Shown here: positions 36,001-42,000 of the stretch, piece after piece
How positions within the stretch are numbered: the first letter of the stretch is position 1
Layout: each line of letters begins with the position of its first letter
From: Syntrophales bacterium
GTDB lineage: Bacteria; Desulfobacterota; Syntrophia; Syntrophales; UBA2210
Direction of reading: 5' to 3'
NCBI GenBank assembly: GCA_963666365.2
Contig: CAXXNF010000002.1
Span: 480,001 to 544,000 of the forward strand
Length of the DNA stretch: 64,000 nucleotides
Position numbers: made by a program

Positions 36001-39000
36001 AGTGATTCCGGCCATGAACGAAGTGAGAAGAGCCGCCGATATTATGGAAGGGGTTGTGGCCGACGACCTCTGGGCGTTGCCCATGTACTTTGAGATGTTG
36101 TTTATCAGGTAGGAACAATGTGAGCAATTGTCTGGTTGCAGAGAATAGTCACATTCAAAGTGAAAAAACTTGACATAAATCTGAGATTTGAAGTATAGAG
36201 ATGCACATATCTGAAGGGAAGAGAAATGCGGGACGTGAAGTACACTCTCTATCGCAAATTGAATAGGCAACTCTGGTGGTGGACCAACATAGCAGTGTCT
36301 GCCGGCGCACCTTCCCACTTTTAGTAATTGCAGTACCATACATAATAATAAAGGGACCGTAGGCAGCACCATTGCCCTCGGTCCTTTTTTCGTAGAAAAA
36401 GGGGCCTGGAGAAATCCATGCCCCCTTTTTTTTTACTGCGGTTGAAAATATCAGGCAGTATGTAATGCTCGCATGTGAAGGTTTGAGTCGTGCGTGCGAG
36501 ACAACATGGAGGATGACATATGCAAAAACCGTCAACAAGTAACGATACACCGAAGATGACGTCCATGCCCGACGAAAGCGGTCATTTCGGTCCTCATGGC
36601 GGGCGCTACGTGGCGGAAACGCTTATGACGGCGCTCCTGGAGCTGGAAGGCGCCTACAGAAGGATCTCTCCCGAGCGCATGTTTCAAGAGGAACTGGAGG
36701 TACTGCTGGCCGACTATGCCGGCCGTCCCACTCCCCTCTACTATGCCCGTCGGTTAAGTGAACATCTTGGCGGCGCCCAAATCTACCTCAAGCGGGAAGA
36801 TCTGACCCACACGGGCGCTCACAAGATCAATAACACGCTGGGGCAGGCGCTGCTTGCCCGGTGGATGGGAAAAAAGAAGGTTATCGCTGAAACCGGCGCC
36901 GGTCAGCACGGGGTTGCCACCGCAACGGCGGCGGCGCTCTTCGGCATGGAGTGCATAATATTCATGGGCGTGGAGGATATTCGGCGACAAGCCCCCAATG
37001 TGCTTCGTATGAAACTGCTTGGCGCGGAGGTGATACCCGTTGAGTCCGGCGCCGGAACCCTGAAGGATGCCATGAACGAGGCCATGCGATACTGGGTGGG
37101 CGCAGTGGAAGACACCCACTATGTAATTGGTTCGGTTGCCGGGCCTCATCCCTATCCCATGATGGTACGGGATTTTCAAAAAATCATCGGGGAAGAAGTA
37201 AAAGACCAGATGCGGAATTCCCACGGCCGGTTTCCTGACGTGCTTGTGGCCTGCGTGGGCGGAGGGAGCAATGCAATGGGGCTGTTCCATCCCTTTCTGG
37301 AAACGTCGGCAACGCTGGTGGGGGTGGAGGCGGCGGGAAAGGGCATCGCCTCGGGCAAACACGCGGCGACTCTCGGCGAGGGTTCCCTGGGGGTGCTCCA
37401 CGGCTCAAAGTCCTATGTGCTTCAGGACGAAAGCGGGCAAATCAAGGAAGCTCACTCTATTTCCGCGGGACTTGATTACCCCGGTGTCGGTCCTGAGCAC
37501 TCGTTCTTGAAAGACGCCGGCAGAGCACACTATGTCTCGGTGGATGATGACGAGGCGATGGAGGCCTTTCATATGCTGTGCCGTCTGGAGGGAATCATTC
37601 CGGCATTGGAGAGTTCCCATGCCGTTGCCTATTGTCTCAAGAATGCACCGCACATGTCAAAGGATACGGTGGTGGTGGTGAATCTGTCCGGAAGGGGCGA
37701 TAAAGACCTGGGCATTGTATCGGAGTATGAACGAAGGAAAGGGGAGGTGAGCCGATGAGCAGACTGGATCTCCGATTTGCCGATCTGAAAAAACGAAGTG
37801 AAAAGGCGCTTGTGGGATTTGTTGCGACAGGAGATCCCACATTGCCTGTTTCACTTGAACTTATCACGGCCATGTGCCATGCCGGTCTCGATGTGCTGGA
37901 ACTGGGCGTTCCCTTTTCCGATCCCACAGCCGATGGTCCCGTGATACAGCGTGCCGCGGCGCGGGCCCTGAGGGCAGGTGCGAGCCTTGCAAAAGCGATT
38001 GAAATGACAAAAACCTTGCGGGGAAGAACCGATATACCCATTATCCTTTTCAGCTATTACAATCCCATCTTTGCCTACGGACATGAATCATTTTACCGTG
38101 ATGCCCGCAATGCCGGGGCCGATGGCGTACTTGTCGTGGATCTGCCCCACGAAGAGTCGAGGGAACTGACGAAATGCTGGGAGAGAAACGACGATTTTGC
38201 ATTGATCCGGCTTGTGGCGCCTACCACGCCGGATGAAAGAATGAAAACGATCACGGAGAATGCATCGGGATTTCTCTACCTGGTTTCGAAGACAGGGGTG
38301 ACCGGAGGCGCCGGTGTGGATAGGGACAGCGTGAGGACCAAGGTAACGACGCTGCGCGCCCTTACGGACCTGCCCATATGTGTGGGATTCGGCATCTCCG
38401 GTCCCGAAGATGCAAGAATGCTGGCCCCCCACGCCGACGGAATCGTGGTGGGTAGTGCCTTCGAAAGGGCCATAGAGGATAATATGGATGATCCGGAGCT
38501 TGTCGCAGGGCTGGAGAGACAGGTGAACGAATTGAAGCAGGCGCTGAAACCGCTTGGCGAACATAACAATAATAAAAAGGAGGAAACCCCATGATTACAG
38601 CACTGGTGCTTTTTAAGGCGGAAAAGGGAAAAATCCAGAAGCTGGCCATGCAACTGGGTGCCATCGAAGAGGTGGTGGAAGTACTGTCCATTACCGGAGA
38701 ATATGATCTGATGGCAAAGATTCAGGTGCGGGAATATGAGCATCTGTCCGACATTGTGACGGATAAGATGCAGAATACGGAAGGCGTTACGGGGACAAGG
38801 ACGATGATGGCCTTCAAGACGTACAAGTTTCATGAACTGGGTGAAGGCGCGCCCGCGGCAATGATGGTTTCATCAGCCGAAGAGGAAGCGGTCGCACTGC
38901 TGGAGAACGGGAAGAGCACGATCAAGCCGGTCCTTTCAAAGCTGACCGAAAACTTTGATCTGGAGAAGAGCGAAATCTACAGCGTCATCGATGCGATTCA

Positions 39001-42000
39001 CGAAGGACAGCTGTCGGAGGTGCAGATTGCCGGGTTTCTGGTGGGACTTCTCAGCAAGGGTCCGAGCATCAAGGAGGTGGCCTATATCGCTCAGGCAATG
39101 CGAAAAAACTGCATTCCCATGCATGTCTCCGTAGGGTCGGAACTCACTGATACATGCGGTACCGGCGGTGGGTTAACCACCTTCAATGTCAGTACGGCAA
39201 ACGCAATCCTGACCGCATCGGCCGGTGTGCCCGTGGCCAAACACGGCAGCAGATCCATATCATCCCCATCGGGGAGCGCCGATGTTCTTGAAGCGCTGGG
39301 CGTCAAAATTGATCTGCAGCCCGAAGAGGCATCCCGGCTGATCGAGGACATAGGAATCAGCTTCATCTATGCGCCGAACTTTCATCCTGTCATGCTCAAG
39401 GTGTTCGGTCCGGAGAATCAGCTGGGCATAAAAACGATATTTTTTACCATCATCGGGCCTCTCATCAATCCGACAGGCGCCCGCAACCATATGATCGGCG
39501 TGTACAAGCCCGAACTGGTCAACATGATGGCAAGCGTAGTGGCAGAGATGGATTTTAATCATGTCATTGTTGCCCACGGGCTTGACGGGCTGGATGAAAT
39601 ATCATTGATCGGAAAGACCTCGCTTGCGGAAATCAGGGGCAGGGAAATCAAATACTTCGAAGTCGCCCCGGAGGATTTCGGTTTCACACGCTGTACCCTG
39701 AAAGATATCGCAGGAGGAACTCCCGATTTCAACGCGAAGGTTATCAGGGATATCTTCTCCGGTCGAGAGCAGGGTCCACGGAGGGATTTCCTGCTCCTTA
39801 ACAATGCAGCCACGCTCTATGTAAGCGGCAAGGCATCGAGCATCCAGGATGGAGTGGCGCTTTCCCGGTCTCTCATCGATTCCGGGGCGGGCGCCCGCAA
39901 ACTGGAAGAACTTGTGGAAAAATCGAATGCCCTTTGATAGTGTGCTGTCATGAATAGCAATGCAAACACCGCGCAAGGGGAAAAAAAATCAACGCTTGCC
40001 TCGTTCATACGCACTCGGCAGCGAGAGGGTCTGTTCCCCGTAATATCTGAAGTGAAGGTGCGTTCCGAAAAGGAGGGCGATCTTCTGCGCGGGCGCGATC
40101 CGGTCGCGCTCGCCTGTGAAATGGGCCGGTCAACCATCGCGGGAATAAGCGTCGTGACGGAACCGGATCATTTCGGCGGAGACTTGAACCTTTTGCGCGA
40201 GATCGCCGCGGCGGTAGATTTGCCCGTGCTGCATAAAGATTTCATTACGTCGGAGCGTCAAATCGAGGAATCAGCCGCAGCAGGCGCCTCGGCCATACTA
40301 CTGATCACCGCCATGGTCGATGCAACCCAAATGGCGCGTCTGATTGCATATGCCCGACAGTGCGGGCTTGAAACCCTTGTGGAAGCACACAACATGGAAG
40401 AGGTGAAAATGATAACGTCTCTTCCTTTTGACCTTATGGGAATCAACAACCGCGATATTACCGTTTTCGAAGTGGACGACAACGACGTGGGAAGGACGGA
40501 GGCGCTCGCCCGTTTCTGTAAAAGCAGTCGGCCGCTGATCAGCGAAAGCTCGATCAGTTCTCACAGTGACGTACGGCGCGCGGGCAGAAGCGGCGCCGAT
40601 GCCGTGCTGGTCGGCACGGCGGTGCTGAAAGCGCCCTCAATTTCAGGGTTTTTACGGGAACTGATATCGGTGGGATGGCCGCCATGACGCGGATTAAAGT
40701 ATGCGGGATTACCACAGAAGAAGACATCTGCCTCTGCGTTGCGGCGGGTGTCGATGCCCTGGGCTTTGTGGTGGAGTACCCGATTGACGTGCCATGGAAT
40801 CTGGACAGACAACAGGCCAGAATACTGATGCAACAGGTGCCTCCATTTGTGTCGAGGGTAATCGTGGTCGGCGACGATCCACAGACCATCATTACACTGG
40901 CGGACCTGTTGAGGCCTCACGCTGTCCAATTGCATGGTAAGGAATCACTCTCCCTCACGGCGAAACTTGTGACCGCGCTTCATGCGCGTCGCATTTCGGT
41001 GGTAAAGGCACTGCGTATTTCCATCGAGACGGGGAAATGCACAAACGCAGGAGAAAATCCCCTCGATGCCGCAGGGCTTATTGAAGATGCCGGTGTCGAT
41101 GCTTTGCTTCTGGACTCGGTGACTGAAGGACGCCCGGCGGGAACAGGCCGTACTATAGATTGGGGTATTGCACGTTATATCAGAAAAATGGTGAAGCTTC
41201 CCCTTATACTTGCGGGCGGCTTGCAGGCAGAAAACGTCGGCGAAGCCATTGCAACCGTCCATCCCTTCGCTGTCGATGTGATCAGTGGCGTCGAAAATCC
41301 TGTGGGAAGAAAAGATTCCGAAAAGATACAGGCGTTTATCACCGCAGTAACCACAGCTACGAGCCAGAGGTAGAATCAGTGGCACCCGGGGGGGGGGTAA
41401 TGAATGTTTCATGATTTCGGAATATGAACATTCTTGTTTTTTCTCGTCTCTCCCTTTGACGATTTGTTCAATGCATTGTTGACTTACCATGTTTGTTTTA
41501 CCATACTCATATGTTCAAGTATGCTTCATGGAGATTTATTCAAAATCTTACCATTAAGTATGTAATTAAAAGTGGAGGATATCGAATGCCGATAGCAACA
41601 GACAGACTGCGGATGTTACTCATCAACACATTTATATTTCTCATAGCGTTTGTGTGGGCTGATGAACTGATCGATATGCCCCGTGTTACTTCCGGCGGTC
41701 AGCCAACACCCATAAATTGGGTTGAAGCACTAATCGAGACGGTGGTGATTGCAGCGGTGGGCTTTCTTACGGTAACACGATTTTTTTCAAAGCAAGAAGC
41801 AAAGAGCCCGCGCGGATTAGCGAGGGAAGAACGGTATACCTGGATCACGGTGTCATGTTCGTTTCTGGGGTTGTGTTGTATGGTATGGCTAAATGAAATT
41901 ATAGACGTGCCCTATCTTCTACTGCAGGGCGAAAAAACTCCCCTCAACTGGTCGGAAGCCGCTGTTGAAACATTTCTTATTATTATCGTCGGTGGCATAG

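What a model noticed while it worked through the whole genome (the two positions that open the first line are those of the whole stretch)
36225..41373. TrpD carrying an N-terminal Lrp/AsnC ligand-binding (RAM) domain in a second, attenuator-led trpBADCF operon without trp [...]
g01671 (448 aa) joins an AsnC/Lrp ligand-binding domain without DNA-binding helix-turn-helix (residues 7-77) to a complete anthranilate phosphoribosyltransferase. It sits in a second trp operon that lacks anthranilate synthase and has a WWW leader and terminator; amino acid feedback may have moved to TrpD for anthranilate use.
Evidence so far: Domains; 119 of the best 120 homolog clusters are 431-488 aa with all three Pfams; trpD*-C-F order kept in G266 and G296; canonical trpD g02577 only 40% identical; leader MRDVKYTLYRKLNRQLWWWT.. 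with terminator. No paper (search 163).
(Added by a program. Inside this text positions count along the whole contig: contig position 480,001 is position 1 of the stretch shown here. "Call 12" and the like, gene names such as g00115 and contig names such as C1 are that model's own, and its searches are not shown. The text may have been shortened before it was handed on; [...] marks where a part breaks off. The agent that wrote the report below was given it as the finding of a first reader that could run no searches.)

Follow-up and report, generated by a model that had tools for sequence, protein, structure and literature searches.

The report
Rewired tryptophan branch with built-in sensor
The fused sensor-enzyme gene is real, and it heads a widespread second set of three tryptophan-pathway enzymes that have lost the grips for their usual starting compound, so these microbes probably make tryptophan from a different aromatic amine such as aniline.

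Summary
The RAM-TrpD fusion and the Trp leader are real. The 'second operon for anthranilate use' reading does not hold as written: this operon has the genome's only trpA match and only canonical trpB match, and its TrpD is not an ordinary one. The Arg and Asn that hold anthranilate's carboxylate (PMC9835598) are Glu275 and Ser220; Glu stands in 159 of 159 clade rows, Arg in 10 of 10 canonical rows. The linked TrpF lacks its conserved Arg (0 of 122) and the linked TrpC lacks the lid helix, while catalytic residues stay. This D*C*F* cassette spans several phyla, sits under Trp leaders or Trp T-boxes, and usually coexists with a full canonical D-C-F set. Best reading: a parallel route from a non-carboxylated aryl amine (aniline first, 0.45; 'not anthranilate' about 0.75) to indole-glycerol phosphate. 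TrpD* is then the committed step, and the RAM domain, closest to PDB 2DJW, would give Trp feedback like Thermus SraA (recalled, not retrieved). Substrate and allostery are untested.

The parts
36170..36199 (+). possible sigma-70 promoter (TTGACA, 18 nt, TATAGA); weak
   Evidence: read by eye; not listed by the scan
36226..36324 (+). leader peptide, 32 codons, three Trp codons at 36274-36282
   Evidence: homologous leaders
36274..36308 (+). attenuator segments 1 and 2 (pause hairpin); segment 2 (36295-36303) can also pair with 36362-36369 in the terminator arm
   Evidence: the 2:3 pairing is only modestly above shuffles
36350..36390 (+). intrinsic terminator hairpin (3:4) with U run
36396..36434 (+). 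second hairpin with U run, kept in several relatives
36520..37758 (+). trpB, the genome's only canonical-type tryptophan synthase beta match
   Evidence: TIGR00263 over cut-off
37755..38594 (+). trpA, the genome's only match
38591..38842 (+). RAM (Lrp/AsnC ligand-binding) domain, residues 1-84, no HTH; the only PF01037 match in the genome
38843..38923 (+). variable linker, residues 85-111 (pLDDT under 50 at 79-99)
38924..39937 (+). TrpD* phosphoribosyltransferase domain; PRPP/Mg motifs kept, aryl site remodelled
39248..39250 (+). Ser220, in place of the Asn of KHGNR (N138 in M. tuberculosis AnPRT)
39398..39400 (+). Lys270, new conserved basic residue (K 152, R 6, T 1 of 159)
39413..39415 (+). 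Glu275, in place of the conserved helix-8 Arg (R193 in M. tuberculosis AnPRT)
39950..40687 (+). trpC*, IGPS paralog without the N-terminal lid helix; catalytic Glu/Lys/Asn kept
40675..41373 (+). trpF*, PRAI paralog; catalytic Cys and Asp kept, conserved Arg replaced by Trp41 (40795-40797)

Best explanation
The operon joins the cell's only tryptophan synthase (trpBA) to a mobile three-enzyme cassette, TrpD*-TrpC*-TrpF*, that is a parallel entry into Trp synthesis from an aryl amine without the ortho-carboxylate, most simply aniline. TrpD* transfers phosphoribosyl from PRPP to the amine, TrpF* does the Amadori step, TrpC* closes the ring with loss of a proton instead of CO2, and TrpA/B turn the indole-3-glycerol phosphate into Trp. 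Because this route bypasses anthranilate synthase, TrpD* is its committed, PRPP-spending step and needs its own brake: the tethered RAM domain binds Trp, oligomerises and inhibits TrpD*, while the leader shuts transcription when Trp-tRNA is plentiful. Shown: fusion, residue changes, cassette, co-occurrence, Trp-type leaders. Inferred: substrate, product, RAM ligand and inhibition. Odds: not anthranilate about 0.75; aniline-type 0.45; RAM = Trp feedback about 0.65.
For: (1) PMC9835598 (sections 3 and 5 read) says a conserved helix-8 Arg (R193) and N138 hold the carboxylate. That column is E in 159 of 159 clade rows and R in 10 of 10 N-type rows; the Asn column is S 158, C 1. E275 was in neither scan's patterns. 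In the pattern-free search, 128 of 151 rows are N/R, 135 have R, 15 have E and none is N/E. (2) PRPP/Mg residues stay: K217, H218, S229 159 of 159, D335/E336 157 of 157 covered. (3) TrpF*: the column of the canonical Arg is W 105, C 16, Y 1, gap 1 of 123; catalytic Cys 122 and Asp 121 of 123. (4) TrpC*: K53, K110, E159, N180 kept in 141-143 of 149; median 27 codons from the trpD stop to the first catalytic Glu against 60.5 in 4 canonical operons, so the lid helix is gone. (5) trpC follows trpD* in 78 of 80 genome loci, trpF in 73, own trpE never: the 2 loci with trpE carry a separate canonical set. (6) 37 of 45 genomes also hold a canonical-like TrpD, 36 of these a second IGPS; L083 has D*C*F*-BA-E-G-D-C-F in one cluster with a single trpBA. 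(7) Trp control of the cassette itself: Trp leaders directly before RAM-trpD* without trpBA in 7 loci; T-boxes in 7 of 9 loci scanned, all 7 with the UGG specifier. (8) 7 draft genomes have the cassette and TrpA but no chorismate-binding gene, so the product should be a TrpA substrate and the precursor external. (9) No transporter or supplying enzyme recurs next to it, as fits a small neutral amine. (10) PMC7681013 (abstract, introduction, results part, part of discussion read): aniline was carried to IGP in vitro by A. baylyi AnPRT, a HisA mutant and P. aeruginosa IGPS, weakly. (11) RAM: best solved relative 2DJW, E 5.6e-25 against 7.8e-18 for the next.
Against: No activity was measured. TrpD* has gained a conserved basic residue (K270: K 152, R 6 of 159) and TrpC* another (Ser58 column K 117 of 149); either could bind a carboxylate. 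Loss of the TrpC lid helix fits a bulkier substrate as well as a smaller one. On the aniline-derived substrate native IGPS is 41,000-fold less efficient (PMC7681013), so the ring closure is hard. I know no abundant natural aniline source for so old and wide a family (recall only). The 7 genomes without trpE are drafts with no completeness figure, and trpE-G-D-C-F are linked, so one missing contig would remove them together. A few loci have trpD*-trpC next to a TrpF of canonical-like loop or none (L091, L107, L125, L132, L142, L144). 24 of 81 loci have no RAM, so it is dispensable. The role of the TrpF Arg and the SraA precedent are recalled, not retrieved.
Confidence: 0.45

Rival explanations
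1. The cassette salvages anthranilate itself, with a rebuilt site in which K270 or another residue holds the carboxylate, perhaps as a low-affinity, substrate-inhibition-free set.
For: K270 basic in 158 of 159 rows; TrpC* keeps K53, K110 and R/K182; genomes with only the cassette and trpBA resemble known anthranilate-fed partial pathways (recalled: Chlamydia); all three genes pass Pfam cut-offs.
Against: An invariant Glu sits where the carboxylate-binding Arg was; mutants of R193 and the Asn raise Km and impair catalysis (PMC9835598). TrpF* lost its Arg in parallel. 36 of 45 genomes keep two IGPS genes, which a mere change in TrpD kinetics would not need. No kynureninase match in G000 (94% complete).
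Confidence: 0.22
2. The substrate is a natural ortho-acyl aniline (kynurenine, 2-aminoacetophenone, anthranilamide, 2-aminobenzaldehyde); ring closure expels the acyl group by hydrolysis and still gives IGP.
For: Paired gain of Glu275 and Lys270 would suit a zwitterionic side chain such as that of kynurenine (inference); new acid at TrpF* position 34 (E 99, D 13 of 123) and new Lys in TrpC*; open lid; TrpD* also serves as the N-terminal domain of PAS-kinase and PAS-GGDEF proteins, which suits a natural signal.
Against: Bulky residues were added around the site: F/L/W at 272 (158 of 159), an inserted F/Y at 285 (157 of 159), Trp in TrpF*. Kynurenine reaches anthranilate by one enzyme (established knowledge). 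No precedent known to me for de-acylating IGPS.
Confidence: 0.2
3. The cassette makes something other than Trp (a substituted indole or another heterocycle) and is merely co-regulated.
For: 53 of 80 genome loci show no trpB nearby; star-type trpC/trpF also occur with a different TrpD-like family, a RibD-type reductase and a molybdopterin enzyme in L169.
Against: Two unrelated Trp-sensing RNA devices precede the cassette itself; TrpA is kept in 7 genomes whose only route to its substrate is the cassette; no tailoring genes recur.
Confidence: 0.1
4. The RAM domain is not a Trp brake: it senses another amino acid, activates, or only scaffolds a D*C*F* complex that channels unstable intermediates.
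For: RAM ligands vary (established knowledge); the linker is long and variable; RAM is absent in 24 of 81 loci.
Against: RAM is as conserved as the enzyme domain (80-98% in close relatives); closest solved relative is 2DJW, recalled as the Trp-binding AnPRT inhibitor; it sits on the first step of a Trp-regulated route.
Confidence: 0.3

Closest known systems
Thermus thermophilus SraA + AnPRT (stand-alone RAM protein; Kubota et al., Extremophiles 2017, recalled, nothing seen; PDB 2DJW seen, its link to Thermus and SraA recalled)
   Same: HTH-less RAM domain of the same subfamily (33 of 86 identical positions counted from the alignment) associated with a TrpD.
   Different: Here fused (40 of 81 loci) or encoded beside the gene (17 of 81), and the partner is the remodelled TrpD* clade, not a canonical AnPRT (1V8G keeps N and R).
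Anthranilate phosphoribosyltransferase TrpD (TIGR01245; PMC9835598)
   Same: Fold (Foldseek TM 0.8-0.9 by target), family score over cut-off, PRPP and Mg motifs.
   Different: R193 column is Glu, N138 column Ser, GTGGD has lost the Asp, an aromatic residue is inserted in helix 9; one clade, SH-aLRT 98 in a quick tree.
In vitro aniline route with A. baylyi AnPRT, evolved HisA and P. aeruginosa IGPS (PMC7681013)
   Same: Same proposed chemistry: aniline, phosphoribosylaniline, PAdRP, IGP without decarboxylation.
   Different: That is weak promiscuity of canonical or evolved enzymes (kcat about 16 per hour); here a dedicated natural set is proposed.
Partial trp operons without trpEG that salvage a precursor (Chlamydia trpDCFBA with kynureninase; recalled)
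   Same: D, C, F, B, A without anthranilate synthase.
   Different: No kynureninase beside the cassette or in G000; aryl sites altered; usually a full canonical set as well.
TrpD2/YbiB
   Same: TrpD-like fold without normal anthranilate activity (recalled).
   Different: Far more distant (4MUO E 8.6e-7 against 1.2e-82 for 9UCW); TrpD* keeps the PRPP site and lies with trpC and trpF.

Membership tests
AnPRT (TrpD) | two-domain type III PRT fold and family score | tested here: met
AnPRT (TrpD) | PRPP/Mg site: GTGG loop, KHG...SGS loop, Asp-Glu pair | tested here: met
   the Asp of GTGGD is deleted
AnPRT (TrpD) | helix-8 Arg holding the anthranilate carboxylate | tested here: not met
   Glu in 159 of 159
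AnPRT (TrpD) | Asn of the beta2-alpha6 loop contacting anthranilate | tested here: not met
   Ser 158, Cys 1 of 159; the metagenome scan selected for Ser, the genome scan did not
AnPRT (TrpD) | activity on anthranilate + PRPP | not testable with these tools
   needs an assay
Lrp/AsnC transcription regulator | RAM ligand-binding domain | tested here: met
   PF01037 7-77
Lrp/AsnC transcription regulator | N-terminal DNA-binding HTH | tested here: not met
   no HTH hit; Lrp models match only their C-terminal half
SraA-type control of AnPRT (recalled) | RAM of the stand-alone 2DJW type linked to trpD | tested here: met
SraA-type control of AnPRT (recalled) | Trp binding, Trp-driven oligomer, Trp-dependent inhibition of the enzyme | not testable with these tools
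   needs binding and kinetics
PRAI (TrpF) | catalytic Cys and Asp (T. maritima C7, D126; roles recalled) | tested here: met
   122 and 121 of 123; alignment to 1LBM
PRAI (TrpF) | Arg of the beta2-alpha2 loop (T. maritima R36; carboxylate contact recalled, one search found no paper) | tested here: not met
   0 of 122 star rows; R in 5 of 6 canonical rows
IGPS (TrpC) | E51, K53, K110, E159, N180 (PMC7681013) | tested here: met
   position 51 is E 99, D 42 of 149
IGPS (TrpC) | N-terminal lid helix alpha0 (PMC7681013) | tested here: not met
   Pfam match starts at model position 37; spacing
Ribosome-mediated Trp attenuator | leader with tandem Trp codons, 1:2 hairpin, terminator with U run | tested here: met
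   (no two-sided compensatory change among 20 pairs)
Ribosome-mediated Trp attenuator | antiterminator 2:3 that outcompetes the terminator | tested here: inconclusive
   duplex -12 to -19 kcal/mol in 15 of 15, shuffle p under 0.05 in 7 of 15; not the lowest-energy fold

The most novel reading that the evidence does not exclude
A natural, decarboxylation-free second entrance to tryptophan biosynthesis: three co-evolved paralogs turn aniline (or a close non-carboxylated aryl amine) and PRPP into indole-3-glycerol phosphate, spread across Desulfobacterota, Bacillota, Actinomycetota, Chloroflexota and archaea, braked by a fused Trp-sensing RAM domain, with the same TrpD* domain reused as the sensor of kinases and cyclic-di-GMP enzymes.
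Probability: 0.42. Interest if true: 0.92.

Novelty: new variant of a known kind. Interest (0 to 1): 0.84.

Why it matters
Tryptophan synthesis is taken to start from anthranilate, and its IGPS step was long held to need the carboxylate (PMC7681013). A dedicated natural D-F-C set for a non-carboxylated amine would be a new route to an amino acid, would reveal an overlooked aromatic amine flux in anoxic communities, would correct many 'trpD/trpC/trpF' annotations, and would offer enzymes that build indoles from anilines. The fusion also makes RAM-type allostery of a biosynthetic enzyme testable in one polypeptide. The claim is cheap to test with three purified proteins.

Tried and rejected
Complex prediction of two RAM and two TrpD* domains gave no verdict and is not used either way. 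Artefactual fusion: rejected. Degenerate copies: rejected, catalytic residues are invariant. TrpD2/YbiB membership: rejected. A substrate-supplying neighbour: none recurs in an all-against-all clustering of the 80 genome loci and the window nor among 70 flanking ORFs, picked from 85 close same-strand candidates, and 3 others scanned with Pfam. In-house source of amine or anthranilate: no kynureninase or UbiD match in G000. The loose Trp-leader filter is weak alone (25 of 78 upstream regions against 106 of 803 control windows); only the alignable leader family is used. A ribosome-position folding model did not show the switch. A scan for loci of the TrpD*-sensor fusions returned ordinary cassettes, no fusion. 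Plasmids hold no close TrpD* (best 41%). ESM Atlas gave generic AnPRT clusters only. The third TrpD-like family was followed and set aside: it goes with a Zn-dehydrogenase, not the cassette, in 11 of 13 loci. Ten paper searches found no description of the fusion or the cassette; the library is open-access only, and three look-ups by recalled id failed. No supplements were read. The careful tree did not finish; the quick tree is cited. The structure model gave no coordinates, so the pocket was not inspected.

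
Full report
Observation. The region holds five overlapping or adjacent + strand genes, trpB 36520-37758, trpA 37755-38594, a 448-aa gene 38591-39937, trpC 39950-40687 and trpF 40675-41373. 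The 448-aa protein has PF01037 at 7-77, then both AnPRT domains, and no HTH hit. 119 of 120 listed homolog clusters have the same three domains at 431-488 aa, so the fusion is real. A 32-codon leader with three Trp codons lies at 36226-36324, followed by a terminator-like hairpin at 36350-36390. The operon is not a duplicate: tblastn finds trpA only here and otherwise only a 30% TrpB-like gene, and the canonical cluster (pheA-aroD-aroE-aroA-aroK-aroC-trpE-G-D-C-F-tyrA, names by my reading of the ORFs) has no trpBA. G000 is 94% complete.

RAM domain. Its best solved relative is the 92-aa stand-alone protein 2DJW, for the single sequence (E 3.3e-15) and for a 33-row profile (5.6e-25, next 7.8e-18). 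I recall 2DJW as the Thermus thermophilus stand-alone RAM protein, and a 2017 Extremophiles paper showing that it (SraA) binds Trp, forms a decamer and makes AnPRT Trp-sensitive; I saw nothing of that paper. Among 80 genome loci and the window, RAM is fused in 40, a separate adjacent ORF in 17 (L032 probably by a frame break; in L082 it follows trpD) and not found in 24. In the quick tree the fused rows form one branch (support 97) of Desulfobacterota plus two Actinomycetota rows. It is the only PF01037 match in G000.

TrpD is not ordinary. PMC9835598 (sections 3 and 5 and passages read) states that the anthranilate carboxylate is held by a conserved helix-8 Arg (R193) and N138, and that changing them impairs catalysis and raises Km. 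Against 9UCW, 4YI7, 4HKM and 1V8G the window protein has Ser220 for the Asn, Glu275 for the Arg, no Asp in GTGGD and an extra aromatic residue in helix 9 (the M. tuberculosis rows were not printed, so its numbering is carried over by motif). Over all loci fetched, E275 is 159 of 159 and the Asn column S 158, C 1, while 10 of 10 N-type rows have Arg; PRPP and Mg residues are constant (the 159 include the window and one locus fetched twice; 3 rows of a third family were counted apart). The scans selected on GTGGG, FFT and, for metagenomes, KHGS, but not on E275. In the pattern-free search 128 of 151 rows are N/R, 15 have Glu, none is N/E. The motif-defined group is one side of a branch with SH-aLRT 98. 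Against my reading, position 270 is basic in 158 of 159 rows where canonical rows have Tyr or His.

TrpF and TrpC changed in step. In 123 cassette TrpF rows the column of the canonical Arg is Trp 105, Cys 16, Tyr 1, gap 1, with Arg in 5 of 6 canonical rows; the catalytic Cys and Asp stay, and an acid appears two residues after strand 2. That this Arg binds the carboxylate is recalled from T. maritima TrpF (one search found no paper). In 149 TrpC rows the essential residues named in PMC7681013 stay, Ser58 becomes Lys in 117, and the first catalytic Glu lies a median 27 codons after the trpD stop (101 rows) against 60.5 (4 canonical rows), so lid helix alpha0 is missing.

Cassette. trpC follows trpD* in 78 of 80 genome loci and trpF in 73; the misses are at or near contig ends; trpB is near in 27; trpE in 2, both with their own canonical trpD. 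77 of 80 metagenome loci are of the same clade, including records named human gut, fermentation and bioreactor. Hosts named span Desulfobacterota, Actinomycetota, Bacillota, Chloroflexota, Aerophobetes, Armatimonadota, a gammaproteobacterium and Methanosuratincola. It is patchy: 10 of 61 related genomes counting G000, and not found in the 97%-complete genome of the same genus. Of 45 carrier genomes (chosen from the 80 loci, favouring long contigs), 38 have a second TrpD match, one of them of a third family, leaving 37; 36 of these have a second IGPS and 34 a second PRAI match. I checked the Asn/Arg state of the second copy in 5 genomes only. L083 holds D*C*F*-B-A-E-G-D-C-F in one cluster. Seven draft genomes have the cassette and TrpA but no TrpE or PF00425 match; their completeness is not given. 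No other neighbour recurs.

Regulation. An alignable Trp leader precedes the operon in Syntrophales-type loci, in 7 of them directly before RAM-trpD* with no trpBA. In 15 aligned leaders the 1:2 hairpin and the terminator are kept without two-sided compensation; the 2:3 duplex is possible in all 15 but beats shuffles at p under 0.05 in 7. In Bacillota and Dehalococcoidales loci a T-box precedes trpD* in 7 of 9 scanned, all with a UGG specifier. So the cassette answers to Trp starvation by two unrelated devices.

Mechanism. Three consecutive enzymes duplicated, each altered at the aryl end and intact at the sugar-phosphate and catalytic end, sharing one trpBA and under Trp control, is what a second route to indole-3-glycerol phosphate from another amine would look like (inference). 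Aniline is the simplest candidate: Glu275 could stand in for the missing carboxylate, added Phe/Trp would fill its space, no transporter is needed, and PMC7681013 (abstract, introduction, part of results and discussion, method passages) took aniline to IGP in vitro, though 41,000-fold less efficiently at the IGPS step. With anthranilate synthase bypassed, TrpD* becomes the committed step, which explains a RAM brake on it. I give aniline-type 0.45, anthranilate with a rebuilt site 0.22, an ortho-acyl aniline such as kynurenine 0.2, a non-Trp product 0.1. RAM as Trp inhibitor: about 0.65. None of these steps was measured.

Comparison and novelty. The protein works like an AnPRT in fold and PRPP site but fails two defining substrate contacts, so it should not be filed as an anthranilate enzyme yet. 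RAM control of TrpD has a recalled precedent in trans; the fusion is a variant. The remodelled cassette was not found in ten searches of an open-access library, which misses most subscription papers; no supplements were read. Five cluster representatives carry the TrpD* domain in front of PAS, kinase or GGDEF/EAL domains, a sign that its ligand is worth sensing.

Verdict. Real, more interesting than first described, and directly testable with three purified enzymes. Interest 0.84; new variant of a known kind, categorically new chemistry if aniline is confirmed.

Noticed in passing
P0123, P0124, P0125, P0126, P0136: The TrpD* domain (Ser/Glu site) is the N-terminal domain of PAS-histidine kinases and PAS-GGDEF(-EAL) proteins, unnamed, from Logan/ENA assemblies; an apparently undescribed sensor domain. 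No locus was obtained.
   Followed up: partly
L169:4946-10755 (G101): Cluster RAM - star-type trpC - star-type trpF - RibD_C reductase - divergent TrpD-like gene - molybdopterin oxidoreductase; L170 keeps the last two.
   Followed up: partly
L086, L088, L171-L182: A third TrpD-like family lacking both the Asn and the Arg, paired with a Zn-dependent dehydrogenase in 11 of 13 loci and next to cobalamin-like genes in L173, L179, L180 (by my reading of the ORFs).
   Followed up: partly
L083:139-10376 (G038; same genome as L076): One cluster with both sets: trpD*C*F*-trpBA-trpE-G-D-C-F, T-box upstream.
   Followed up: yes
L132, L142, L144: trpD*-trpC followed by trpA/trpB with no trpF match in the locus.
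   Followed up: no
window 36396-36434: Second U-tailed hairpin right after the attenuator terminator, kept in several relatives with trpBA upstream; role unknown.
   Followed up: no
L002:5503-6594 (G000 C1:921502-922593): Stand-alone TrpB-like gene, 30% to the operon TrpB; probably TrpB2, not checked.
   Followed up: no
window 33929-36112 and 41493-43868: Flanks are a type III glutamine synthetase and a PAS histidine kinase; neither recurs beside the cassette elsewhere.
   Followed up: partly
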